From: Chiloscyllium plagiosum
Taxonomy: Eukaryota
Direction: 5' to 3'
NCBI RefSeq assembly: GCF_004010195.1
Contig: NC_057719.1
Coordinates: 43,029,248 to 43,093,247, forward strand
DNA: 64,000 bases
The translations under genes and the position numbers were made by a program. The notes below the pieces were generated by a model, which saw only the letters and a list, made by a program, of their open reading frames with translations, made no database searches and had not been told where the DNA came from. Below are positions 1-62,740 of this stretch, piece by piece; position 1 is the first letter of the stretch; each line of letters opens with the position of its first letter.

Positions 1-362
1 TCCTCATCTCCCCTTCCCCCACCTCACCCCAGTTCCAAACTTCCAGCTCAGCACTGTCCCCATGACTTGTCCTACATGCCTATCTTCCTTTCCACCTATC
101 CACTCCACCCTCCTCTCTGACCTATCACCTCCATCCCCACCCCCATTCACCTATTGTACTCTATGCTACTTTCTCCCCACCCCCACCCTCCTCTCATTTA
201 TCTCTCCACCCTGCAGGCACTCTGCCTCTATTCCTGATGAAGGGCTTTTGTCCAAAATGTCGATTTTCCTGCTCCTCGGAAGCTGCCTGACTTGCTGTGC
301 TTTTCCAGTACCACTCTAATATTGAATCTGGTTTCCAGCATGTGCAGTCCTTGTTTTTACCT
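1..362 (+). mobile_element. Penelope-like element 3' end/pLTR (family A), truncated by window start
   Basis: Matches the 3' end of the PLE ORF at 27261-27330 (minus) and the pLTR at 28081-28308; decayed hammerhead ctgatga-agggc-tttt-gtcc-aaaatgtc at 234-261. Confidence 0.8.
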
Positions 363-500
363 ATTCTGAAGAAGGGTCACTGGACTGGAAATGTTAACTC
401 TGTTTAGTCTCCACAGATCCTACCAGACCTGCTAAGTTTCTCCAGCAATTTCTGTTCTTGTGTTTTCAGAACTCCAGCATCCACAGTTCTTTATTACAGT
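363..500 (+). mobile_element. Short PLE-tail element (family B) with hammerhead-like motif
   Basis: ctgaaga-agggtc-actg-gactg-gaaatgttaactctg, then ccagacctgctaagtttctccagcaatt; related to copies at 3195, 6205, 27097, 51885. Confidence 0.7.
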
Positions 501-3194: not shown

Positions 3195-3296
3195 AGGTTC
3201 TGAGGAAGGGTCACCAGACCTGAAACATTAACTCTGGATTTCTCTCCACAGTTGCTGCCAAACCTGCTGAGCTTTTCCAGCAACTTCAGTTTTTGT
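3195..3296 (+). mobile_element. Short PLE-tail element (family B) with hammerhead-like motif
   Basis: caggtt-ctgagga-agggtc-acca-gacct-gaaac-att-aactctg. Confidence 0.7.
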
Positions 3297-4516: not shown

Positions 4517-5560
4517 TAACAATTTTTGAAAAGATTTGTAGCTCAGGTTGATGATAAATATGTAAGTTAGCTCACTGAGCTGGAAGGTTTGTTTTCAGAC
4601 ATTTCTTCACCATGACTAGGTAACATCATCAGTGAGAGTCTCCGGTGAAGCACTGGTGGTATGTCCCACTTCTAAGGGATGGTAGATAGAATCTAAATCG
4701 ACGTATTTATTGATGGAGCTCTGGTTAGAATGCCATGCCTCTAAGAATTCTCGTGTATGTCTTTGTATGCCTGTCCTAGGGTGTGTGTTGTCCTAGTCAA
4801 AGTGGTGTCCTTTTTTGTCTGAATGTATAGAAATTAGTGATACTGGGTCATGTCTTTTGGCGGCCAGTTGGTGATCATGTATCCTGGTGGCAAGTTTTCT
4901 GCTAGTTTGTCCAATGTAATTTTTTTTACAATTCTTGTATGATATCTTGTAAATGACGTTAGTTTTGCTGGTAGTATCTAATGGATCCTTTAGGTTCATT
5001 GGTCACTGTTTAAGTGTGTTGGTAGGTTTGTGGGCTACCATAATGCCAAGGGGTCTGAGTAGTCTGAAAGTCATTCCTGATATGTCTTTGATGTACGGTA
5101 ATGTGGCTATAGGTTTTGGTTGCATTGTGTCTGCTTGTTTGAGTTTTTTTTCTAAGGAATTGGCAGATTGTGTTTATTGGGTACCCATTTTTCTTGAAAA
5201 CATTGAATAGATATTTTTCTTCTGCTTTTTGTAGTTCTTGGGTATTGCAGTGTGATGTAGCTCATTGAAATAATGTCTTGATGCAGCTCTATTTGTTGGT
5301 GTTGAGATGATTGTTTCTGAAGTTAAGTTTTTGATCTGTGTTTATTGTTTTTCTGTAGGCGCTGGTTTGAACCTTTCTGTTAACTGTATGTTCAACTGTT
5401 GCGTCTAGAAATCGGAGTTTGTTCTCGTTCTCCTCCTCTTTTGTGAATTTTATGCCTTTCAGGATATTGTTGATGGTGTTGTATGTTTCTTCTAACTTGT
5501 TCCATTTTGTGATGACAAAGGTGTCATCTACGTAGCAGACCAAAGATTTGGGTTGGATCA
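4517..5560 (-). mobile_element. 5'-truncated Penelope-like element (family C): RT C-terminus, GIY-YIG endonuclease, 3' hammerhead
   Basis: ORF 5289-5621 (YVDDTFVI..IKFTKEEENENKLRFLD) and ORF 4793-4999 (NVIYKISYKNCKKNYIGQTSRKLATRIHDH); 7-bp TSD ataatat at 4510-4516 and 5561-5567. Confidence 0.9.
4596..4634 (-). ncRNA. Type I hammerhead ribozyme-like motif (family C)
   Basis: Minus strand reads ca-CUGAUGA-u-GUUACC-uagucau-GGUGAA-GAAAU-GUC-ug; closing pair of stem II is mutated. Confidence 0.65.
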
Positions 5561-6204
5561 ATAATATCCTGAGGACCTGGGCTCGAAACACACCACAGCA
5601 GATGGTGAAATTTGAATTCAATAAAAGTCTAGAATTAAAGGTCTAATGATGAGCAACTATCAAAAAATACCATTTGAATCACTAATATCCTTTTGAGAAG
5701 GAACCTCGCACCTTTACCTGGTCTTGCCTACATGTGATCCAAGAACCACAGCAGTGTGATTGACTCTCAACTGCCCTCTGAAATTGCCCAGTATGCCATT
5801 TAATTTATCAACCACTGAAAAGGAAAAAGGAAAGTAACCATATGTCATTGATTAAGATGAAATTGGCAATTGTGGCCCTGTCAGACCTGCAAAGTTCTCC
5901 TGACTGATATCTGGAAGCTAGGTCCAGAATTGGGGAAGCTATCTCACAGACTAGTCAAACAACAGCCTAACAGAGTCAAGGAATCATACTTTGTACACAA
6001 TGTCCCAGATAACTCCATCTCCCTCCCTGAGTATGTCCTGTCCCACCAGCAAGACAGACCAAGCAGAGATGGTGGTACGGAGATATATAGTCACAAGGGA
6101 TGTGCTATAGGTGTCTCACAGCATCAGGTCAAACATAAGCAAGAAAACCTGCTGCTAAGTATCATGTACTGCCTTCCTTCTGCTGACAAATCAATGCTCC
6201 TCTG

Positions 6205-6305
6205 CCAAACAGAAGGTGCTGGAGAAACTCAGCAAGTCTGGCAGCATCTGAGAAGAGAGAAAGAGAATTAACATTTCAAGTCCAATATGATTTCTTCAGA
6301 ACTGA
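6205..6305 (-). mobile_element. Short PLE-tail element (family B)
   Basis: Minus strand: cagttctgaagaaatcatattggacttgaaatgttaattctc..ccagacttgctgagtttctccagcacc. Confidence 0.6.
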
Positions 6306-11981: not shown

Positions 11982-12114
11982 AGGAGAAAGTGAGGTCTGC
12001 AGATGCTGGAGATCAGAGCTGGAAATGTGTTGCTGGAAAAGCGCAGCAGGTCAGGCAGCATCCAGGGAACAGGAGAATCGACGTTTCGGGCATAAGCCCT
12101 TCTTCAGGAATGAA
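11982..12114 (-). mobile_element. Short PLE-tail element (family A), young copy
   Basis: ggagaaagtgaggtctgcagatgctggagatc..ggaaaagcgcagcaggtcaggcagcatcc..gacgtttcgggcataagcccttcttcaggaatg; CpGs retained. Confidence 0.85.
12076..12112 (-). ncRNA. Minimal type I hammerhead ribozyme, intact core (family A)
   Basis: Minus strand: cauuc-CUGAAGA-a-GGGC-uuau-GCCC-GAAAC-GUC-gauu; all core nucleotides present. Confidence 0.75.
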
Positions 12115-21640: not shown

Positions 21641-22082
21641 GTGTTTTTTCAACCCCTAAGTGTAGGTCCCCTGAATATTAACAGTCCAGCAATAATACCG
21701 CTAGACCATCACCTCCCCACAACTCAGTGTCTGCTCAAACTATGACCAAAGGGGGGCATGTTCATTGGCTGTTTGACAGCCACTAACATTTGATAAGGCC
21801 TGTGAGCTGATCACGGTGCAGCCTTCATGTTAGGGATAAGTACACATCTGATGAGGTGAGAATGATGTAAGAGACAGGAACATTTATCAATTTTTAAAAA
21901 TTATTTTAAATATACTATTTTTAAATTATTTAGCATTATGAAATTATATATTTACATTGTTCAGCTGTAGTGCAAAATGATCCTCTCATTATTTCTGAAA
22001 GATTAACAAGGAAATCAAATGAAAAATATAGCTGATTTCTCATGAGCCAAGCATGTCGCTACAGAATAAAAGTGCAACAATG

Positions 22083-22720
22083 AAGGAACCGTTCCCACCA
22101 CTGCCAACCTCCAAGGAAGGAACCATTCCCATTCCTGCCAACCACCCAGGAAGGAACCATTCCCACTGTTGCCAACCTCCCATGAAGGAATCGTTCCCAC
22201 CGCTGCCAAACCCCAGGAAGGAATTGTTCCCACCGCTGCCAAACCCACAGGAAGGAACCGTTCCCACTGCTGCCAAACCCCAGGAAGGAACCGTTCCCAC
22301 TGCTGCCAAACCCCCAGGAAGGAACAGTTCCCATTACTGCCAAATCTCTAGGAAGGAACCGTTCCCATTGCTACCGACCATCCAGTAAGGAACCGTTCCC
22401 ATCACCTCCGACTACCCCAGGAAGGAACTGTTCCCACTGCTGCCAAACCCCCAGGAAGGAACTGTTCTCATTGCTGCCAAACCCCCAGGAAGGAACCGTT
22501 CCCACTACTGCCAAACACCGAGGAAGGAACCATTCCCACCGCTGCCAAACCCCCAGGAAGGAACCATTCCCATTGCTGCCGACCATCCAGGGCGGAACCG
22601 TTCCCATTGCTGCCGACCATTCAGGAAGGAACAGTTACCACCGCTGCCAAACCCCAGGAAGGAAATGTTCCCACTGCTGCTGACCATCCAGGAAGGGACC
22701 ATTCCTGCCCCTGCCAACAC
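22083..22720. repeat. Minisatellite, 32-33 bp unit, about 19 copies
   Basis: Consensus approx. ccccaggaaggaaccgttcccactgctgccaaa; unit-length variation shifts the repeat ORFs between frames. Confidence 0.95.
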
Positions 22721-24289
22721 TCTGGCGAGGGGACAGCTCCCACCCATAAAGGCAAAAAAAGAGCAAGTAAAAGTAAAAGAAAAAGAGAAAAAAGAAAGGT
22801 AGCAGACAAGCCCCTGGACACAAATGCTGCTATTCTGCCACAAATTGTGGAAACTCTTGTCATGTAGTGATAGTGTCCCTACCTCAGAGTCAGGAGGTCA
22901 GGTTCAAGTTCTATCTCTGACCAGGCTGATGAGGAAAATACCTAGAAACAAGGTTGCAATCTTACATTTGAGGAAACTTTGCCACAGAGCCACCAAGTTG
23001 ACAGATACTGTAAATACACCATGAAAGTTAACAGCAAAATCAAATGAGAAATACTGACTTTACAATTTATAATGGCAAATATTGGCATTAAAGTAAGATG
23101 AAAAGTATCCGGAAAGTAAGCCTTGCAAATTGTCGTTTCACCAAACACATTTCGAAGTTCAACGTTGTCATATATACTGCATTTCCTCTGTCCATTTAGT
23201 TAAATAATTTCTTCAAAAAATTCAATTGCATGTTATATGCAAATTCACGTTCACTTAAATCATGATATAGTAGATTCACAGACTGGCACATGGATTTCAA
23301 AAATACTTTACAGCTTTTAAAGGGAACATCACTCGCAAGCTGAAAAGACTTTTTTCTAAAAGCACCTTGCACATGTCGACAGTAAACTTGGCCATACCTC
23401 CTAAGTATTAGCATGAATGGTGGAGTCAGAAACAGGGTCAACACTTCAATCCCCCTGTGAATCACATTTCAATTCCTGCATGGTTCCAATGAAGCTTCAA
23501 GCATGATCCATCGCATTTTCCTCAACAATTCTATCCAAACGACAGCAAATGATGGAAAACGCAGCCAGTGAGAGCTGCTTCATATGGACCTCAGTCTCAT
23601 GAAGTGCACACAACTAAAATGCTTATTGTACATTTTCTTTGTAGATGCAGGATGGTCTTCTGTGTACTGCCAACAATTTTGTTTTTTTTAATTCTGACAT
23701 TTGTACAATTACTTTAGCAACCTGCTGTTATTTTTATCATTGCTATCAAGAACACGGTGTGCTTTCTGAACATGCCACCTCCTGGTAAAGAGAAAAATAT
23801 CAGCTCCCAATCCATGTAAAGAAAAAAAAATAAACTTGTGTTCATGGTCAGCTGCAACTTCTAATGACCTCAGAACATCCCAAAGCAAGTTAGAAACAAC
23901 AGCTGACTTCTGAAATGCATACACAATTATGTAAACTAACAACTTACATCGATAGAGCAGTTTCACTGTAGAAAATATGTTTCTAGGTACTTCAGAAACA
24001 AATTCAAAACGTGTTTCTGAGCCTTAGTAGGAACAATTGGAAAGGTGACCAAAAGCTATGCTATAGAGGCTTTTGAAAGGAGCTTAAATGAGAGAGAGAG
24101 ATCTGGAGAAGCAAAAGTTTAAGAAAAGAACTCCTGAGTATGAAACTTAGTCAGCTGATGATCTATCAGTCAAAGGATGGGAAGTGGGTGGGAGTGCCTT
24201 ACAGGCCTGGGTCAAAGCAAAAGAGTTCAGGTGGATGGAAGAAAGTTTAGCACTTGTGAAGATTAAAGGAAAAGAAAACTAGAGACAAC

Positions 24290-27096: not shown

Positions 27097-27228
27097 AGAA
27101 GCAAAATACTGCAGAAGCTGGAAATCGGAAACAAACACTGAGAATATTGGAGAAACTCTTTTCGGCGGCATCAATGGAGAGAGAAACAAAGTTAACTTTT
27201 TGAGTTCGGTATGAACTTTTCTTCAGAT
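27097..27228 (-). mobile_element. Short PLE-tail element (family B)
   Basis: Minus strand: tctgaagaaaagttcataccgaactcaaaaagttaactttg..ttccagcttctgcagtattttgc. Confidence 0.6.
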
Positions 27229-28308
27229 AGGTGGGAAAGAAGATGGACAGATGGGACGGGTCATGAGGGCAGTGCTGAGCTAGGAGTTTGGAGCTGGGAT
27301 GAGGTGGGGGGAGGGAAAATGAAGAAACTGGTGAAGTCCACATTGATGCCATGGGGTTGGAGGGTCCCGAGACGGAAGATGAGGCGTTCTTCCTCCAGGT
27401 GTCGGGTGGTAAGGGAGTGGCGATGGAGGAGGCCCAGGACCTGCCTGTCTTCAGCAGAGTGGGAGGGGAAGTTAAAGTGTTCGCCCACAGAGCAGTGGGC
27501 TTCACTGGTGTGGGTGTCCCAGAGATGTTCTCTGAAGCACTCTGTGAGTAGGTGTCCTGTCTCCCCAATGTGTGGAGACCGCATTGGGAGCAATGGATAC
27601 AGTAAATGACATGTGAGGAAGTGCAGGTGAAACTTTGATGGATGTGGAAGGCCTTTGGGGCCTTGGATGGAGTGGGGGGAGGGTGGGGGAGAAGGAGGTG
27701 GTGTGGGTGCAGGTTTTGTAATTCCTGCAGTTGCTGGGGAAGGTGCCAGGAGGGAAGGGTGGGTTCGTGGAGGGGCGGGAAATGGATGAGATGCTCTGGA
27801 GGGCATCATCGACCATGTGGGAGGGGAAATTGTGGTTGTTAAAGAAGGAGGCCATTTGGTATGTTCTATGGTGGAATTAGTCCTCCTGGGAGCAGATGCG
27901 GCAGAGGCATAAGAACTGGGAATAAGGGATAGTGTTTTTCCAGGAGGCAGGGTGGGAGGAGGTGTGGTCCAGGTAGCTGTGGGAGTCAGTGGGTTTGTAG
28001 AAAATGTCAGTGTTGAGTCGGTCACCATTGATGGAGATGGAGAGGTTGAGGTAGAGGAGGGAGGTGTCTGAGATGGTCCTTTACCCCCACCTCTGTCCAC
28101 CTATTGCACTCTCAGCTACCTTTCCCACAGCCCCACCCCCTCCCATTTATCTCTCCACCCCCGAGGCTCACAGCCTCATTTCTGATGAAGGGCTTTTGCC
28201 CAAAACGTCAATTTTCCTGCCCCTCAGAAGCTGCCTGACCTGCTGTGCTTTTCCAGCACCACACTCTTGACTCTAACCTCCAGCATCTGCAGTCCTCACT
28301 TTCGCCTA
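27229..28308 (-). mobile_element. Penelope-like element (family A): RT C-terminus and GIY-YIG domain on minus strand, with an inverted pLTR (28081-28308, plus strand)
   Basis: HIGETGHLLTECFREHL..SVGEHFN..EEERLIFRLGTLQPHGINVDF (ORF 27261-28100); another frame gives LNTDIFYKPTDSHSYLD..HPASWKNTIPYSQF; frameshifted. Confidence 0.9.
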
Positions 28309-28839: not shown

Positions 28840-29073
28840 GGCGAAAGTGAGGACTGCAGATGCTGGAGATCAGAGTCAAGATTAGAGTGGTGCTGTAAAA
28901 GCACAGCAAGTCCGGCAGCATCCGAGGAGCAGGAAACTTGATGTTTCGGGCAAGAGCCCTTCATCAGGAATGAGGCCATTCTTGATAAAGGGCTCTTGCC
29001 CGAAACATCGATTTTCCTGCTCCTCCGATGCTGCCTGACCTGCTGTGCTTTTTCAGCACCACTTTAATCTTGA
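28840..29073. mobile_element. Palindromic (head-to-head) family A pLTR element
   Basis: Inverted arms about 28875-28972 and 28977-29074; 14-bp direct repeat caatagtaccactg at 28826-28839 and 29074-29087. Confidence 0.9.
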
Positions 29074-29494
29074 CAATAGTACCACTGCCCTGAACTGGCC
29101 AAACCATGAAGGATATATCTGCCAGATAAGACCTGTGACAGATTATGTGGGAACTAAAATGAGTGAGTAGTTTACTTGAACTGTTTCACACAAAGCTTTC
29201 TGACCATTATAAATTAATAGATGTGACCATGGTGCAGTTCTGGTGAAGACAAAAATATCTTAATGACACTATAATTTCTCAGGATTTTACATTTCAAAAT
29301 AGGTCCTACAGAAAGTTCTAAAGCAAACATTTGTAAAATTGAAGTCTCAGCACTAGGTGGCAATGCATTGTCACAAATGTATGTCTATCAGCTGAACAGT
29401 TAGAAATTCTGTAATAACGTGGAATAAAACACTTCTTTAAACTGACAACCTTTTCAGTTATATGTGATAACATCACTGGGCATATATATGAAAT

Positions 29495-31214: not shown

Positions 31215-32090
31215 TTGACAACTACAGACCTGGCGACTAAATGGTCAGAGAAATTCAAGTTGCAGATGATCAAGAGGCCAGGGTGAGAAGTGCGCAGAGA
31301 TTTTGGCGGATTGTAGCCTTCAGAAGAGATCACAAAGACAGGAGGATACATAAGGATTTGAAATTAAGGATTTTCAAGGTTTTTAAGCTTAAAGAAATAA
31401 ATATTAAAAATGATTAAAGAGTGAAAGTTCATCAGGAGCCACTGTGGATTATGAGCAGTGAAATGATAGATAAATAAGACATGGTGCAATATGAGCAGTA
31501 GAGTTCTAGATGACTTCAAGTTTATAGAGAATGGAACATGAGACACCAGCTTGGAGAGCATAGGAGTAGTCAAGTGTAAAAGCATCAAAGGCAGACAAAG
31601 AATTTCCATAGTTGAGAGTGTGTTGCCGGAAAAGTATACCAGGTCAGGCAGCATCCAAGGAGCAGGAAAATCGGCGTTTCGGGCCGGAGCCCTTCAACAG
31701 GAGTGAGGCTGAGAGCTCTCCACCCCCGAGGCTCCCAACCTCATTCCTGATGAAGAGCTCCGGTCTGAAACATGATTTTCCTGCTCCTCGGATGCTGCCT
31801 GACCTGCTGTGCTTTTCCAGCAACACACTCTCAACTCTGAACTCCAGCATCTGCAGACCTCACAGCCTCCTAAAGAAATTCCACAGCAGATGAGCTGAAG
31901 CAACAGCAAATGTGTGATTGGACGTCTAACTCAATATCAAATCTGACACTAAGGGTTAAGATGATTGGGCACGTTCTCAGGCAGTTAACAGGAAAAGGGC
32001 TGAGTTCATGACTAGGCAACAGAGTCTGTGATGGGCAGTGAAGACATTGGAAGAAACTCCTTCTCTTGGATGTTGAACAGGCATTGTAAC
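31215..32090 (-). mobile_element. Decayed L2-like LINE fragments, interrupted by a palindromic PLE element
   Basis: ggagtagtcaagtgtaaaagcatcaaaggcag is antisense of an AFxxSRLDY-like motif; ORF 31364-31654. Confidence 0.5.
31612..31871. mobile_element. Palindromic family A pLTR element
   Basis: Inverted arms about 31611-31708 and 31739-31835; imperfect 15-bp TSD aaagaatttccatag / aaagaaattccacag (31597-31611, 31872-31886). Confidence 0.85.
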
Positions 32091-40249: not shown

Positions 40250-41520
40250 TGACACTCAGTTTTCATTCTGCCAGGCTATCCGGCTCCTGAACTCTTTACA
40301 ACTTTGGTCCAAATATGGACGAAGAGCTGAATTCAAACGCAAATGTGAGAGTGACAGTCCTTGATACCAAGGCAGCATTTGACTGATGGTAGCATCATTT
40401 TTCCCCTGGCAAAACTACACTCAATGGAAAATAAGGGGGAAACTTTGCACTGGTTGAAGTCATATCTAGCAATACAAAATGGTTCTGGCTCTTGGAGCTC
40501 AATCACCTAAGCTCCAACCTATTATTACAGAAATCCTCAGTAGTGTTGCATTCTCAATCTTCTTTTCAATGACCTTCCTTCCATTTGCCATCCAATCATT
40601 TGTTAATGATTGCACACTGTTCAAAACAATTTATATTTCCTCAGATACTGAAGCAATCCACATCAATATGCAACAAGACCTGGGCAATATCCTGGCTTGG
40701 ACTCATTTTCTGACACACAAGTGCCAGGCAATGACCATTTTCACTGAAAAAGAATCCAATCATCATCCCTTGACATTCAATGGTATTAACATTGTGCAGT
40801 CCACCCATTATCAGCATCCCAAGGATTATCATGGACCAGAAACTGAACTAGCCCAGTCATATAATTCGGCGAAAGTGGAAACTGCAGATGCTGGAGATCT
40901 GAGTCAAAATTAGAGTGGTGCTGGAAAAGCACAGCAGGTCAGGCAGCATCCAAGGAGCAGGAAAAGGATGCTGCCTGACCTGCTGTGCGTTTCCAGCATC
41001 ACACTCTTCAACTCCAGAATCTGCAGTCCTCACTTTCTGCTAGTCTTTCACTATCTACAAGGCACAACACTCTTACCTGGATGAGTGCAGCACCAACAGC
41101 ACTCAAGAAGCTCAATACCACATAGGACAAAGCAGTCTGCTAAATTGACACCACATCCACCACTCATACCACCAGTGTGTACCATCAACAAGTCGTACTG
41201 CAATTCTTCACCAAGGCTCCTTAGACAGTAGCTTCCAAACATATGACGTCTACCATCTTGAAGGACAAGGGCAGCAGATACAAGGGAGCACCACCACCTG
41301 CAAACTCTGCTACAAGCTCTACACTACTCTGCCTTGGAAATCTATCCCAATATATCCCTGTTCTTTCTCCGTCGCCGAATCAAAATCCTGGATATTTTAA
41401 TAGCACTGCTGGTGTCCATATATCCCAATGGCAGCTCACCCCTACCATTTCCAGGTTAATTAAAGATGGATAATAAATGTTGGCCCAGCCACCAAAGTCT
41501 ACATATAATGAACAAATTTT
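40250..41520 (+). mobile_element. CR1/L2-group LINE 3' fragment (same family as 4465)
   Basis: LDTKAAFD, FVNDCTLF..QQDLGNILAW..KCQAMT in ORF 40479-40913; tail aataaatgttggcccagcca. Confidence 0.75.
40868..41040. mobile_element. Palindromic family A pLTR element lacking the central hammerheads
   Basis: Inverted arms about 40871-40951 and 40966-41037. Confidence 0.8.
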
Positions 41521-43229: not shown

Positions 43230-44509
43230 CAATGCCGCAATTCGCCGACAGGGGGAGGTGGGGACACCGCCGCTGATCCTGACGGGCGAAACAGAACCTG
43301 AAGTGTACGGCAAGAGGGAGGAGCTCCTACAGTCTGAGCCTGGTTACCGGCAATGTTAGCGTCAGTCTGACCTTGGTTACTGGGGCTCTGAGCTACAGTT
43401 GGACCCTGGTTACTGGGGCTCTGAGCTACAGTCGGAGCCTGGTTAATGGGGCTCTGAGCTACAGTTGGAGACTGGTTACCTGGATTCTGAGCTACAGTCT
43501 GACGCTGGTTACTGGGGCTCTGAGCTACAACGTGACCCTGGTTACTGGGGCTCTGAGCTACAGTCTGAGCCTGATTACTGGGGCTCTGAGCTACAGTCGG
43601 AGCCCGGTTACCTGGATTCTGAGCTACAGTCTGACCCTGGTTACTGTGGTTGTGAGCTACAACGTGACCCTGGTTACTGGGGCTCTGAACTACAGTCTGA
43701 GCCTGATTACCTGGGCTCAGAGTTACAGTCTGACCCTGGTTACTAGTGCTCTGAGCTACAGTCTGAGCCAGATTACCTGGTTTGGAGCTACAGTCTGACC
43801 CTGGTTACTGGGGCAGTCAGCGTCAGTCTGACCCTGGTTACTGGGGCTCTGGGCTACAGCCTGACCCTGGTTACTGGGGCTCTGAGCTACAGTCTGACCC
43901 TGGTTACTGGGGCAGTCAGCGTCAGTTTGAGCCTGGTTACTGGGGCTCTAGGCTACAGTCTGAGCCTGGTTACTGGGGCTCTGGGTTACAGTCTGACCCT
44001 CGTTACTGGGGCAGTCAGCGTCAGTCTGAGCCTGGTTACTGGGGCTCTGGGCTACAGTCTGAGCCTGGTTACTGGGGCTCTGGGTTACAGTCTGACCCTC
44101 GTTACTGGGGCTCTGAGCTACAGTCTGACCCTGGTTACTGAGGCAGTCAGCGTCAGTCTGAGCCTGGTTACCGGGGCTGTCAGGAACGGTAGCCGCCAGG
44201 TCACAGGTACCAAGCAGCTGGATCGCAGCTTTCGGATTCCATTCTGCTGGTCTCTGGGGTTTGTAGCTCTTTCCACCCCCGCCGTTGAATGCCTTTTCGA
44301 GCTGACTGATCCACCGACTCCGCCCGTTCTCGGACGGCAGTTCCTGGGCTGGACTCTGATGAAATCGGGGACTGTGGTTGGATTGGACCTCTCTCTTGAG
44401 GTGTGTATTAACACTCTTGCTGGAGTTAAAAGAGCAGTTTGGAGAAGTGTTATAACTGGACGTGACATCGGCAAAGTCTCTCACTGATTTATATTAGGCA
44501 AACCCCCAG
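43230..44509 (+). promoter_or_regulatory. CpG-enriched putative promoter / non-coding first exon
   Basis: CpG-rich segments on both sides of the minisatellite (43230-43310, 44180-44350) in an otherwise CpG-poor window; donor cag|gtaaat at 44509/44510; CpG enrichment tails off to about 45500. Confidence 0.5.
43325..44180. repeat. Minisatellite, 33-bp unit, about 25 copies
   Basis: Consensus ctgagctacagtctgaccctggttactggggct; translates as (SELQSDPGYWG)n or (LVTGALSYSLT)n. Confidence 0.95.
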
Positions 44510-47905: not shown

Positions 47906-48868
47906 CTATTATCAATGTAAGGAAGAAGAAAGTGGAAACTAACTCCTTCGTTCTAACATAGCAGGTCAGAACACATTTTGACCTGAAATACTTTGTGTTA
48001 AATCATTGACTTTTGCACTAGTAGTGGATTTATTACAAGTAATCTCTGTACCCGAAGACCAAGTTTGTATTCTTATTTTGTTGCGCAGTGCTCGCTACTG
48101 AAAATGTGTTCAGCCACTGAAAATGACTTTTGGTTTTACCACATTTTGATTCATCATCAGTAATGTAAACCGTGTAGGAGGCGAAGTCCTGTTAGCAAAA
48201 TACAAATTCTTCATACAAATCCAATTTCTTTCAACCTTTACGTTTCTTAAAGCATTGATGTTTGAAATTGGTATTTTGTTACCCTTTCCTCCTTGTCCTC
48301 GAAAGATGAGGAGAGATGCCTTCTTGAACGGCTATAAGACGTGTCAAATAAGCCAGAATTTATGTTGGTCTGGGTATAATAGCTTTTTGTATGTTTGCAT
48401 AATACCATGCCTAATCTAAAAAATATGCAAAGAATGCTTAACGTTTTTTTCATTTTTTCATAGATTTCATTTCTTTTTTCAGGCTGAAGGAGATAATGGG
48501 CACAAGTGTTGAAGGTCATCTGAAAGCAACACTAGTCTTGCTGGGAAAACAGCTTCATCTATAAAACCATAAACTGCAAAAAGATAGCAAGTATATGTTT
48601 ACACTTTCATAAGCATAGTGTGCAAATTAATAGATCTTTGTATGCAAACTGCAACAGAGTACAGTAAACAAAAACTGGCTGGTGTGTTTCTTTTTCAAAG
48701 CCATTTCATCAGTAATGTTTTAAACTGAGACACACATACAAGCTTGAAACAGAAGTCATTAACGGAAGTAAATTTTCATTATTAATACCCATTGGAGCTA
48801 CAGGTATTCTGAATTTCTTTTGTATGAGAACTACTTACTAGTACAGTCATTAACTATGTGCTGTCAAC

Positions 48869-49855
48869 ATGATAACTGTTGTTATAGATTGTCAAGAAAT
48901 ATCAGCAGCTGTACATTTGCAACAGGATGAAGAAAGCGACAATACAAACAACTTTCTCCAGAACATGGCAGAATGCTTCATGGAACTAAATGGCAATATG
49001 GAAATCTCTGTTCCTTTTGATGATTGTGGATTAGGTGTCAGTAATTCTTCTCTGAGCCAAAATTGTATAGAGGAACAGGATCTTTGCAAAGTTCTTGAAA
49101 ACCAAAGAGACACCACAACTGTACTGAGCACTGAAAAGGCTATCAGTTCAGAAGCGTTAGATCCCAATGCTTCAACTAATGACAGCACAACAGGCTGTAT
49201 GGAGGATCCTGTTGGCAACATGAAACATATCTTAAATGGAGCTGATTTAATGGGGATGAGAAAGGATACATTGCTTAATGCCTCAACAAGTAAAACATTG
49301 TGCTCATCTAAAGGTGAAGAAAACAGTGAATTATGGAGTGACTTTGCAGGTTACTGTAAAACATCTGTTGTACAGCAGCAGTTATTTGGTACTTTTCATG
49401 AATTGTCTTTGAGGGAAAAAGATGATTCTGCTGAGAAGAGTTTTCAGCATTCCAAAATTCCTAATGGTTACTTCACAAATCATCATTTTCCAATCCATCA
49501 TCACAATCCTACAAATAACAAATGTGATAATGAATTGCAAACCTCTGTCTCCACTATTAATGCTTGTGCTCCAATGTGCACGATGTTAAAATTAAATTCT
49601 TCTGTGAATACTGAGGAAGATTTACTTGGATGCAGCAATCCAGAACCACCTGCAGTTTTTGTTGATAACAATTTTGCAGATTCTGCAGTAAATAGGACAT
49701 TTGGAAGTGATGGACAATTAGTCAATGACACAATTCAGATTATTAACTACAAGGAAACTGAATTTTCAGGCCTTGGCTCAGCTGGAGCATTGTGCCCTGT
49801 GAATCCTCCATTTTCAGAAAACCAGGCGATCCTATCTGCAAGTTCAGCTCTGAAG
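48869..49855 (+). CDS. CLBA1: Large acidic first coding exon of an aftiphilin-family gene (probable CLBA1/C14orf79)
   Basis: 339-aa non-repeat ORF with aacATG start; acidic, low-complexity, with WSDF (49334-49345) and FGTF (49385-49396) adaptor-ear-type motifs; phase-0 donor aag|gttagt matches the next exon. Start codon and upstream exon boundary uncertain. Confidence 0.7.
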
Positions 49856-50994
49856 GTTAGTAGCCCAAGCTCTTTAGTAAGTAATTAAGTGGAGAAATGT
49901 CTCAATTTTAACTGTTCACTTAATTTACTGACTCATATTGTCTGACTCAAAATCTTTCAACCAGTGCTGATATCACTCGCACTTGCTGTTTTTAGTAAAG
50001 TTCAAAGAAAAATCTTTGAAAATGAATGAGTCAGTAAGGTTTTTCACACAATTTTAAAAGTGGTTTTGCAAGAGATGCTGATGGTGACATTCCTGCCTGA
50101 AACTTGCTGAACAAAACAATATAATGGAGTGAGTTGCAAGGCTGTAATCTCTAGTTTATCTGGAAAAAGCAAGTTGATTTACAAATTTGTATCTCTTTTA
50201 AATGATGATTTTCACAGTTGAGATCTTGTTTTGCTGATGATTTGGTTGTAATGTTGCCAAAAGATATGCAGTACTATGGGAGAATAAGTAGATTATTTCG
50301 TTATCTATATGGCTTTTTTGAGATAACAACTGAGTTTAGCACTTTGAGCCCAGCAGCTAACCATGACATAACTTGCACATTGAAAGAAGTATTGAAATGA
50401 GTAGTAGAAAATTGCATCAGAAATGATGAATAGCTCAACAGGTCAGGCTGCATCTTTTGAGGATGCAAATTGACAATTAGTACTGAATCCTTTTGCAAAA
50501 ACATGAAAATAGCTAAAGGGAAAGTAAGAAAACATGGAAAAGTAACAGAGTCGATTTGCATGAATGGGAGTATGGTAAAAGTTGAAATCTGGAGTATACC
50601 AAAAATGTAAATCACCAGTGTAATGTTGAGAAGTTGGAGAGGATTCCTGTGTGGAGGCCAACCGTGATCTCTCCTCCTCTTCTTTCTCCCATGTGGAGTT
50701 CCTACTGTTTCTAATTTATATAAACCAGGACAAGATCTGAACTCAAGTTTTGAACAAGCTGTTTTTAAGGAGGTTTAAGGATAGAGGATTGACCAAGAAA
50801 GCTTTGTCATCTTTTGAACTATTACAACGCTGTGGTTAAGGATTTTTGCAACAGACTGGCAATATTTGAGATTTATTTGGGATTAAAAGCAGTTTGGGGT
50901 CAAGTTTAGCACCAACGTTGCAACCAGTCTGATTTAACCTGTGACATTGTCAGGGACAGGGATATATAAGGCTATAGGAGTCCAAGTCAGGTGA

Positions 50995-51884: not shown

Positions 51885-52090
51885 AATTAAAAACCAGAAA
51901 ATGCTGGAAAAACTCAGCAGGTACGGCAGAATCTGCAGAGAGTGAGAGAGAGAGAGAGAGACGCAGAGTTAATATTTTGTTTCCAATATGATGACACTGG
52001 CAGTTCTTAAAAAGAGTTAAACTGGACTCAACTTTAACTCTGTCCACAGATATTGCCAGGTCTGAGTTTCCTCAGTATTTAGTTTTTATT
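51885..52090. mobile_element. Decayed palindromic family B PLE-tail element
   Basis: gaaaatgctggaaaaactcagcagg..cagagttaa on the left mirrors ttaactctg..ctgagtttcctcagtattt on the right; (ga)n expansion in the left arm. Confidence 0.55.
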
Positions 52091-61454: not shown

Positions 61455-62740
61455 TAATTGATTGATTTATTGTCATGTGTACCGAAGTACAGTGAAAAGC
61501 TATGTTTACGAGCAGTACAGGCAGATCATAGTAAGTAAGGATGTACAGCTCAAAAAGACTTAGACAGTGGTGTACAGGTTACATTGCATGGGGTGTGGGC
61601 TCGGCAAGCTCAGCATTATTTGAGGCTAGACAGTCCATTCATCAGCCGAATAACAGCCGAGAATAAGCTGTTCTTGGACCTGCTGGTGCATGTGTTCAGG
61701 CTTCTGTCTCTTCTGCTTGCTGGAAGTAGTTGTACGAGAGCATTGCTGAGATGCGAAAGGTCTTTGATGTTGGCAGCCTTTCTGCAGCACTGAGCCCTAT
61801 AAATGGAGTCCACGGATGGAAAATTGGCTTCCATGATTGCTATACAGTTACGCACCCAGACAATATGCTCTCCATGCTGCATCTGTAGGAGTTGGTGAGG
61901 ATCCTTATGGACATGCCAAATTTCCTGAGCTACCCGAGGAAGAAGAGGCCTCCTTGTGCCTTTTTGACTGTTGCATCTACATGGAAATTCCAGGACAGGT
62001 TGTCAGTTATCATCATTCCAAGGAACTTAATGTTCTCCACCCTCTCAACCTCCGTTCCATTGATGTAGATGGGGTGTGTTCGCCTCCTTTCTTTCTGAAG
62101 TCAATGATCAGTTCTTCAGTGTTGTTGACATTGAGAGAGAGGTTGTTCTCATTGCATTACATCACCAAGCCCTCTATCTCCCTTCTGTATTTTGACTCGT
62201 CATTGTTAGATATTAGTCCCACCATGGTGGTATTGTTAGCAAACTTGTAGATGGCATTCATCTGGAATTTGGCAACACATCATGGGTGTACAGAGAGTAC
62301 AGTTGGGGGAGAGGGTGGGCTGAGGATGCACCTTTTGAGGATCTCCAGTATTGAGTATTATTGTGGAGGAGGTGCTGTTGTCTATCTTCATTGATTGCAG
62401 TATGTGGGTCAGGCAGCTGAGGATCCAGTTGCAGAGGATGGAGCCAAAACCAAGGTCACAGAGTTTTGAGCTCAGTTTGGAGAGGATAATGGTGTTGAAG
62501 GCAGAGCTGTAGTCAATGAGCAGGAGCCTGACGTAGGTGTCCTTGTTGTCCAGATGTTCCAGGAATGAGTGCGGGGCTAGGTATTTGGCACATTGTGGAC
62601 CTGTTACATCGGTAGGCAAATTTTAGGGGATTGAAGCAGGCTAGAGTTGATGTGGGCCCTAACCAGCTTCTCTAAGCACTTCGTGATTATTGAGGCCAGA
62701 GCTGCTGGGTGATAGCCATTAAGGCACATTGCAGATGCTT
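61455..62740 (-). mobile_element. Rex1/Babar LINE 3' fragment
   Basis: [77 protein letters not shown]; (attg)n tail. Confidence 0.9.

What the first reader, a model, noticed from the sequence alone, without database searches (positions are those of the whole stretch)
12076..12112. Intact minimal hammerhead ribozyme in a young, ORF-less Penelope-tail element
Seen: the minus strand reads cauuc-CUGAAGA-a-GGGC-uuau-GCCC-GAAAC-GUC-gauu, giving every conserved core nucleotide, a perfect stem II, an extra A between A9 and G10.1, and a loop-less palindromic stem III (ACGU). Predicted cleavage is 3' of the C at 12080. The carrier is about 130 bp with no ORF. Established: PLE pLTRs carry minimal type I hammerheads, and such short-stem-III forms cleave mainly as dimers. 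Inference: this is a non-autonomous, ribozyme-bearing retroelement family that is abundant in this shark genome and would normally be annotated only as an anonymous repeat.
Basis: partly seen in the sequence, partly recalled or inferred. Interest (0 to 1): 0.75.

Follow-up and report, generated by a model that had tools for sequence, protein, structure and literature searches.

The report
Fresh shark Penelope stub with hammerhead
This is a real copy of the tiny self-cutting "hammerhead" RNA motif already known from Penelope-like jumping genes, carried on a 130-base end-piece of such an element that some samples of this species have at this site while another sample and two related organisms lack it, so it is a fresh example of a known kind of thing, and it would likely cut poorly on its own.

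Summary
The motif is real. Every core base, the extra A, a 4-bp stem II and the ACGU palindrome lie at 12107-12080 (minus), with C17 at 12080. It is the window's only strict match; shuffles give a mean of 0.02. "Intact" is overstated, because stem I is three pairs plus a U·U mismatch. "Young" is now shown: the 130-bp insert is absent from one conspecific sample and two related organisms, whose contigs carry 44 other letters there, while two conspecific samples show the insertion junction. "Non-autonomous family" is not supported. Longer copies run into the 3' UTR of a broken RT + GIY-YIG Penelope ORF in this window, with the known head-to-head and "tail" layout. Most likely this is a short cDNA stub of an active Neptune-type Penelope-like element (0.8). 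Many family copies stop at 12111, four bases before the core, often after an extra G, which may mark a capped RNA start. This copy starts two bases further out. Cleavage was not tested. Minimal hammerheads in fish PLEs are published (PMC4209133), and this scan found the same thing earlier on other DNA (446 notes).

The parts
11984..12113 (-). 130-bp insert: terminal stub (pLTR end plus tail) of a Penelope-like element; replaces 44 other letters seen in the empty allele; no target-site duplication
   Evidence: Single contigs of X2, X9 and X10 align up to 11983 and from 12114 with 44 letters between (table 8); longest word shared by the two flanks is 5 nt
12108..12111 (-). 5' strand of stem I (AUUC). 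12111 is a frequent 5' boundary of family copies and the A of an initiator-like TCATTCC (Inr consensus recalled)
12100..12107 (-). Core C3-A9 (CUGAAGA) plus the extra A between 9 and 10.1
12088..12099 (-). Stem II GGGC/GCCC with tetraloop UUAU; forms in the predicted folds
12080..12087 (-). G12-A13-A14-A15.1, loop-less ACGU palindrome, U16.1, C17; predicted cut between 12080 and 12079
   Evidence: cut position follows the hammerhead numbering of PMC4209133
12076..12079 (-). 3' strand of stem I (GAUU): three Watson-Crick pairs and one U·U
11982..12017 (-). Optional tail of about 36 nt; one arm of the head-to-head pairs at 28840-29074 and 31610-31874 lacks it. 11982-11983 match both the family end and the target
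27226..28080 (-). Broken, 5'-truncated PLE ORF (RT thumb, linker, GIY-YIG) and start of its 3' UTR, from an older subfamily; contains a stop and frameshifts
   Evidence: tblastn of P0002: E 3e-41 and 5e-33; P0002 has RVT_1 and GIY-YIG hits below gathering
28085..28307 (+). Inverted arm of the same insertion: 3' UTR, decayed hammerhead and tail
1..351 (+). Longer family copy that links the ORF's 3' UTR to the hammerhead and tail
   Evidence: 1-100 matches 27325-27226 at 81%, 135-351 matches 28085-28296 at 82%, 224-351 matches the focal stub at 78%
28840..29074 (.). Head-to-head pair of stubs with a 14-bp target-site duplication; the tail is on one arm only
31610..31874 (.). Head-to-head pair of family copies; the tail is on one arm only
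40868..41041 (.). Head-to-head pair, both arms truncated downstream of the hammerhead

Best explanation
The 130-bp insert is the hammerhead-bearing end-piece of a Penelope-like retroelement family; it is present at this site in some samples and absent in others, and it was likely written into the genome very recently by the reverse transcriptase and GIY-YIG endonuclease of an active Neptune-type element. Steps: (1) Inferred from PAc biochemistry: the element's protein nicks the target and starts reverse transcription inside its own RNA at one of two sites about 36 nt apart, here at the outer site (11982). (2) Inferred: copying stopped after about 130 nt, at or just beyond what is likely the RNA's capped 5' end at 12111 (about 0.55 for this sub-step), which gave an ORF-less stub. 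Templates that read through a tandem give the longer copies with 3' UTR and ORF. (3) Inferred: repair lost 44 bp of target instead of duplicating it. (4) The hammerhead is inherited from the element. It would need a second copy (ACGU palindrome) and probably the element's protein to cut 3' of C12080. This lone copy is predicted to be nearly inactive and to decay like its neighbours.
For: Family link: 8 related arms at 5 other window loci, 78-83% identical. Window 1-351 joins the 3' UTR of the ORF at 28080-27306 to the hammerhead. The ORF's named relatives have RT + GIY-YIG, and the best 5 representatives, 752-946 aa, have RVT_1 plus C-terminal GIY-YIG hits. A CX2-5CxxC linker is present in P0002 and in 97 of the 105 held proteins with a YIG-type motif, out of 153 held. 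Close relatives of the focal copy continue past 12113 (262-366 records per run). The X21 loose-end consensus aligns to the UTR upstream of the hammerhead at window 186-226, and 0 of 5000 random stretches score as well. Layout: 4 of the 5 other loci are head-to-head, two with a one-sided tail, one with a 14-bp TSD, as described in PMC8557442 and PMC3846280. Youth: empty allele in X2 (same organism code), X9 and X10; junction pieces with 0 differences in X1 and X6; the focal copy is the only 1 of 7 hammerhead-bearing window arms with core, stem II and ACGUC all intact. Cap hint: copies with unrelated flanks stop at 12111 (261-341 records in 5 runs), and the next letter is C on the + strand (G on the element strand, where the family has C) in 5 of 5 loose-end consensuses and 14 of 15 shown joint rows. 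Weak activity: PMC4209133 (monomer inactive, dimer low), PMC11167929 (protein-assisted, not needed for insertion in vitro).
Against: No full-length element of the focal subfamily was seen. Its link to an ORF rests on a 30-nt consensus (agreement 0.63) that matched 1 of 3 window UTRs significantly; the other two were reached by 6.5% and 78% of random stretches. The X1 and X6 junction pieces have only 25-26 letters on the element side, below the tool's 31-letter rule, and X1 may be the assembly's own sample. The 44 letters of the empty allele were not displayed, so target deletion is inferred. The focal copy starts at 12113 with two family-like letters and no extra G, which does not fit a pure cap stop. 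The extra-G rows are not independent (shared loci across samples; 133 rows hidden), and the consensus often reads CAG, so a subfamily with a templated G is possible. Head-to-tail 130-bp tandems exist (21, 15 and 16 contigs). Pfam found nothing on the broken window ORF pieces themselves.
Confidence: 0.8

Rival explanations
1. One reading: a dedicated non-autonomous 130-nt element (SINE- or retrozyme-like) that is transcribed from its own stubs or tandems, is processed by dimeric hammerheads, and is mobilised in trans by PLE protein.
For: Sharp family boundaries at 11982 and 12111; head-to-tail 130-bp joints in 3 of 3 DNA runs; family reads in RNA run X21 (3258 laid); retrozymes derived from PLE pLTRs are reported, including in one chondrichthyan genome (bioRxiv 10.64898/2026.07.22.740005).
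Against: This locus is a monomer. About as many records continue past 12113 into UTR-like sequence as stop at 12111. Tandem joints involve tens of contigs among 70,000 or more laid. No read start or end pile-up appeared in X21, and none of its reads lay on the unique left flank. The same boundaries follow from copying the front end of an autonomous element's RNA.
Confidence: 0.12
2. The 130 bp arrived by recombination or repair-templated replacement of a 44-bp stretch from an existing copy, not by a new retrotransposition.
For: No TSD; 44 letters replaced; 2-nt microhomology at the 3' end.
Against: The 3' end lies exactly at the family's commonest end, 11982 (1217-1452 records per DNA run), as expected for priming there. 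Unbroken contigs across the 44 letters suggest they are not high-copy sequence. PLE insertions without TSD are described (PMC3846280 passages).
Confidence: 0.06
3. A host-useful ribozyme kept intact at this locus by selection.
For: It is the only intact copy in the window.
Against: The insert is missing from a conspecific sample and from two relatives, so youth explains the intact state. Among the 7 window arms the core decays as fast as the downstream sequence (6 of 77 against 24 of 343 cells).
Confidence: 0.02

Closest known systems
Minimal hammerheads (min-HHR) in pLTRs of metazoan PLEs (Cervera and De la Pena 2014, PMC4209133; parts 1-2 of 4 and supplement passages read)
   Same: Core, extra base between 9 and 10.1, G10.1-C11.1, palindromic 15.2-16.2 with no loop, short helix I. 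Thousands of solo copies attributed to truncated PLEs, and opposite-strand pairs. Reported in fish Xena, Poseidon and Neptune elements, coelacanth and Xenopus.
   Different: Stem II is 4 bp (7-8 bp in S. mansoni) and helix I has a U·U. No shark was named in the parts read or in the searched supplement file (one file was not searchable).
EN+ PLE insertions, Neptune/Nematis-type linker (PMC8557442, PMC3846280; passages)
   Same: RT plus C-terminal GIY-YIG, CX2-5CxxC linker, heavy 5' truncation, inverted adjacent copy, one-sided 30-40 bp tail, Inr-like motif in the pLTR.
   Different: Very short stubs with a sharp 5' boundary beside the hammerhead and a possible extra G were not seen described in the passages read.
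PAc (Poseidon of Anolis; Frangieh et al. 2024, PMC11167929; parts 1-2 of 4 read)
   Same: Hammerhead about 100-130 nt upstream of two reverse-transcription start sites that define the tail.
   Different: Different clade. In PAc the ORF starts inside stem II; this stub has only short frames. PAc activity was measured, this one was not.
Metazoan non-LTR retrozymes (PMC7229834 passages; bioRxiv 10.64898/2026.07.22.740005 parts 1 and 3 of 5 and passages)
   Same: ORF-less, type I hammerhead, related to PLE pLTRs.
   Different: Retrozymes are tandem repeats, mostly with canonical hammerheads and circular RNAs. This locus is one dispersed monomer with a minimal motif.

Membership tests
min-HHR of metazoan PLEs | Core CUGANGA ... 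GAAA, U16.1, H17 | tested here: met
min-HHR of metazoan PLEs | Extra nucleotide between 9 and 10.1; G10.1-C11.1; stem II | tested here: met
min-HHR of metazoan PLEs | Palindromic 15.2-16.2, no loop 3 | tested here: met
   ACGU; predicted intermolecular duplex -3.1 kcal/mol
min-HHR of metazoan PLEs | Short helix I (4-5 bp in S. mansoni, 2 bp in D. virilis) | tested here: inconclusive
   3 pairs plus U·U, +0.1 kcal/mol, not formed in monomer folds
min-HHR of metazoan PLEs | Covariation and excess core conservation within the family | tested here: inconclusive
   7 window arms: no excess (6 of 77 against 24 of 343) and no double-sided change in stem II; only the loop varies. The family-wide variant table came back empty
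min-HHR of metazoan PLEs | Self-cleavage as dimer or with protein | not testable with these tools
   needs an assay
EN+ Penelope-like element | Family linked to an RT + C-terminal GIY-YIG ORF | tested here: met
   Older subfamily. Focal subfamily only indirectly
EN+ Penelope-like element | 5' truncation, inverted adjacent copy, one-sided 30-40 bp tail | tested here: met
Neptune clade | CX2-5CxxC linker between RT and EN (shared with Nematis) | tested here: met
   P0002 and 97 of 105 relatives; decayed in the window copy
Neptune clade | Phylogenetic placement with named Neptune references | not tested
   No labelled reference set was held; the Neptune label rests on the linker and on recall
Non-LTR retrozyme | At least two tandem units, each with a hammerhead | tested here: not met
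   Single unit at this locus; rare tandems elsewhere
Non-LTR retrozyme | Unit-length circular RNA | not testable with these tools
   Only poly(A) single-cell reads were available
Rfam hammerhead families | Covariance-model score | tested here: not met

The most novel reading that the evidence does not exclude
This shark PLE family is jumping now, and its RNA starts at 12111, so the capped 5' end is itself the 5' strand of hammerhead stem I. The ribozyme would then be a self-decapping switch that removes a 32-nt capped leader once two RNAs and the element's protein meet. The many 130-bp stubs with an extra G would be DNA records of uncut capped RNA. Joints where an upstream copy ends at C17 (12111 to 12080, seen in X1, X3 and X6) would be records of cut RNA. 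That would make the open question of what PLE hammerheads do directly testable.
Probability: 0.25. Interest if true: 0.6.

Novelty: new member of a known kind. Interest (0 to 1): 0.22.

Why it matters
As an object it matters little: minimal hammerheads on truncated PLE ends are published, and sharks are known to be rich in Penelope-like elements (bioRxiv 10.1101/443036, passages). Two points have some value. First, this insertion appears to segregate within the species, which points to a currently or very recently active vertebrate PLE and gives an undecayed hammerhead to assay. Second, the sharp 5' boundary beside the ribozyme may locate the RNA start and bear on the unresolved role of PLE hammerheads. 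The second idea came from earlier scan notes and was only partly tested here.

Tried and rejected
No whole genome is held, so no copy count or family-wide alignment was possible. Rfam: 0 hits and one chance miRNA hit. Family patterns found 0 matches in viral contigs and in two metagenome scans. Pfam on 22 window ORFs gave one weak LINE-type RVT_1 hit, and on 4 pieces of the broken PLE ORF nothing. The first homolog search used a mostly off-frame translation and returned an off-frame protein; it was redone in frame. Run search: no RNA holder listed. RNA run X22 laid 0 reads, which is no test. X21 (about 2 in 100 of the run read) gave no start or end pile-up; poly(A) single-cell reads are a poor test for cut ends. 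The second lay returned no variant table, so family-level covariation stayed untested. X3 showed no junction piece among its 8 listed pieces and is left undecided. A distal stem I from the upstream UTR was sought by constrained folding of 5 copies and not found. The loose ends at 12026-12027 were first read as the second family end; their consensus is family sequence, so the short end lies near 12015-12018. Starts at the cleavage site (12079) were not among the six top loose-end rows of any run and could not be counted. Lunse et al. 2017 (PMC5785218) is not held; only its title was seen, in a reference list. Six paper searches listed no paper on a shark PLE hammerhead. Repbase/Dfam, subscription journals and the bioRxiv supplements, which may list a chondrichthyan consensus, were not seen.

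Full report
Observation. Numbering places C3-A9 at 12107-12101, an extra A at 12100, stem II at 12099-12088, G12-A15.1 at 12087-12084, the loop-less ACGU at 12084-12081 and C17 at 12080. A loose pattern gives 7 matches in the window against 1.19 expected. A strict descriptor (core, paired stem II, zero-loop stem III, UH) gives this one motif, against a mean of 0.02 in 200 shuffles. Rfam does not recognise it. The weak point is stem I: C-G, U-A, U·U, A-U, predicted at +0.1 kcal/mol. Stem II forms in the monomer folds, but the hammerhead does not. The ACGU palindrome gives a -3.1 kcal/mol duplex between two molecules, and the imposed dimer (-18.9) lies above the free two-strand minimum (-24.1).

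The carrier belongs to a Penelope-like element. BLAST finds 8 related arms at 5 other window loci, 78-83% identical. Two of them extend upstream. Window 1-351 begins in sequence 81% identical to 27325-27226, which follows a broken ORF at 28080-27306. That ORF matches P0002, a Chiloscyllium punctatum protein by its source label (67% identity in the endonuclease part; tblastn E 3e-41 and 5e-33). P0002 has RVT_1 and GIY-YIG hits below gathering. Its best 5 relatives are 752-946 aa with RVT_1 and C-terminal GIY-YIG hits. A CX2-5CxxC linker occurs in 97 of the 105 held proteins with a YIG-type motif, out of 153 held. That linker marks Neptune and Nematis PLEs (PMC8557442, passages); the choice of Neptune is from recall, without a tree. 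Four of the 5 other loci are head-to-head. At 28840-29074 and 31610-31874 one arm lacks the last ~36 nt, and the first pair has a 14-bp TSD. This is the published inverted-copy and tail layout. For the focal subfamily the link to an ORF is indirect: 262-366 records per run continue past 12113, and the X21 consensus matches the UTR upstream of the hammerhead at window 186-226 better than all 5000 random stretches, but not significantly for the other two UTRs tried.

The insertion is young. In X2 (organism A, 1 difference in 408 aligned flank bases), X9 (organism B) and X10 (organism C), one unbroken contig aligns to 11983 and again from 12114, with 44 other letters between. In X1 and X6 (organism A), pieces with 0 differences cross the 12113/12114 junction. 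These pieces have only 25-26 letters on the element side, below the tool's 31-letter rule, and X1 may be the assembly's own sample. The X6 piece stops 30 bases past the junction, as a branch with the empty allele would cause (inference). X3 is undecided. The insert therefore appears to segregate in organism A and to postdate its split from B and C. It has no TSD. The 44 letters were not displayed; loss of target DNA is inferred. Youth explains why this is the only 1 of 7 hammerhead-bearing arms with an intact motif. In those 7 arms the core departs from the majority in 6 of 77 cells and the downstream sequence in 24 of 343, so there is no excess conservation.

Family ends. The commonest end on the tail side is 11982 (1217-1452 records per DNA run), exactly where this copy ends. 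On the other side, 261-341 records in 5 runs stop at 12111 and go on into unrelated DNA. The next + strand letter is C in 5 of 5 consensuses and in 14 of the 15 shown joint rows from 12111 (133 rows hidden, rows not independent). About a quarter would be expected by chance (my estimate). On the element strand this is a G where the family has C, and 12111 is the A of TCATTCC, which fits the initiator consensus as I recall it. PLE pLTRs hold Inr-type internal promoters (PMC2377424 and PMC3846280, passages). Earlier scan notes read such stubs as copies of the capped front end of the element's RNA. I took that reading from them, and my data fit it in part. Against it, the consensus often reads CAG, which could be a subfamily, and this copy starts at 12113 without the G. 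Head-to-tail 130-bp tandems occur in 21, 15 and 16 contigs. Short tandem duplications of the hammerhead join 12111 to 12080, 12077, 12076 or 12070, so the C17 joint is one of several.

Expression. RNA run X21 gave 3258 reads over the stretch, nearly all on the repeat family, 129 of them at 99% or more identity, none on the unique left flank, and no start or end pile-up. The family is present in poly(A) reads; transcription of this locus and cleavage are not shown.

Mechanism. In the anole element PAc, reverse transcription starts at two internal sites that define the tail. Its hammerhead cuts only with the element's protein present and is not needed for insertion in vitro (PMC11167929, parts 1-2 of 4). 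A single S. mansoni min-HHR did not cleave, and dimers cleaved weakly (PMC4209133, parts 1-2 of 4). Only 1 of 9 Xenopus dimers cleaved (bioRxiv 10.64898/2026.07.22.740005). The most likely history is priming at 11982, about 130 nt of cDNA that ended at or near the RNA start, and repair with loss of 44 bp (0.8). The ribozyme is a passenger that would act, if at all, in the parent element's RNA. A self-propagating non-autonomous family (0.12), replacement by recombination (0.06) and host use (0.02) are the rivals.

Novelty. PMC4209133 already reports such motifs in fish PLEs and thousands of solo copies per genome. Six searches listed no paper on the shark family; repeat libraries and some supplements were not seen. 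The scan holds 446 notes on the same theme, none near this site and none on this sequence by shared words. Verdict: a new member of a known kind, interest 0.22. The additions here are the segregating empty allele and partial support for a cap-marked 5' boundary.

Noticed in passing
window 362-480 (+), 3198-3296 (+), 6208-6301 (-), 51895-51941 (-), about 27130-27226 (-): A second stub family with its own minimal hammerhead (5-bp stem II, extra A, better-paired stem I in the copy at 3200). The four copies that retain the motif start within a few bases of it, and two of them directly abut family-1 PLE sequence.
   Followed up: partly
window about 4600-5590: A second, decayed PLE on the minus strand (GIY-YIG-like match at 4975-4805, E 5e-5; looks Poseidon-like from recall). 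It has a hammerhead-like motif near 4600-4635 (-) and another at 5569-5589 (+), i.e. inverted ends.
   Followed up: no
window 28840-29074: Clean head-to-head stub pair with a 14-bp target-site duplication and a one-sided tail.
   Followed up: partly
joint 12111 to 12080 in runs X1, X3, X6: Somewhere in the genome a hammerhead copy ends exactly at C17 and is followed, after two letters, by a new copy starting at 12111. This could be a cut-RNA footprint or microhomology.
   Followed up: no
window 40868-41041: One arm of this head-to-head pair starts about 2 bases downstream of the predicted cut site.
   Followed up: no
window 22082-22742 and 43327-44204: Two degenerate tandem arrays with periods of about 34 and 33 bp, inferred from self-BLAST offsets.
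   Followed up: no
window 62236-62622 (-) and 48854-49888 (+): A weak RVT_1 hit, probably a LINE fragment, and a 344-codon stop-to-stop frame with no Pfam hit.
   Followed up: no
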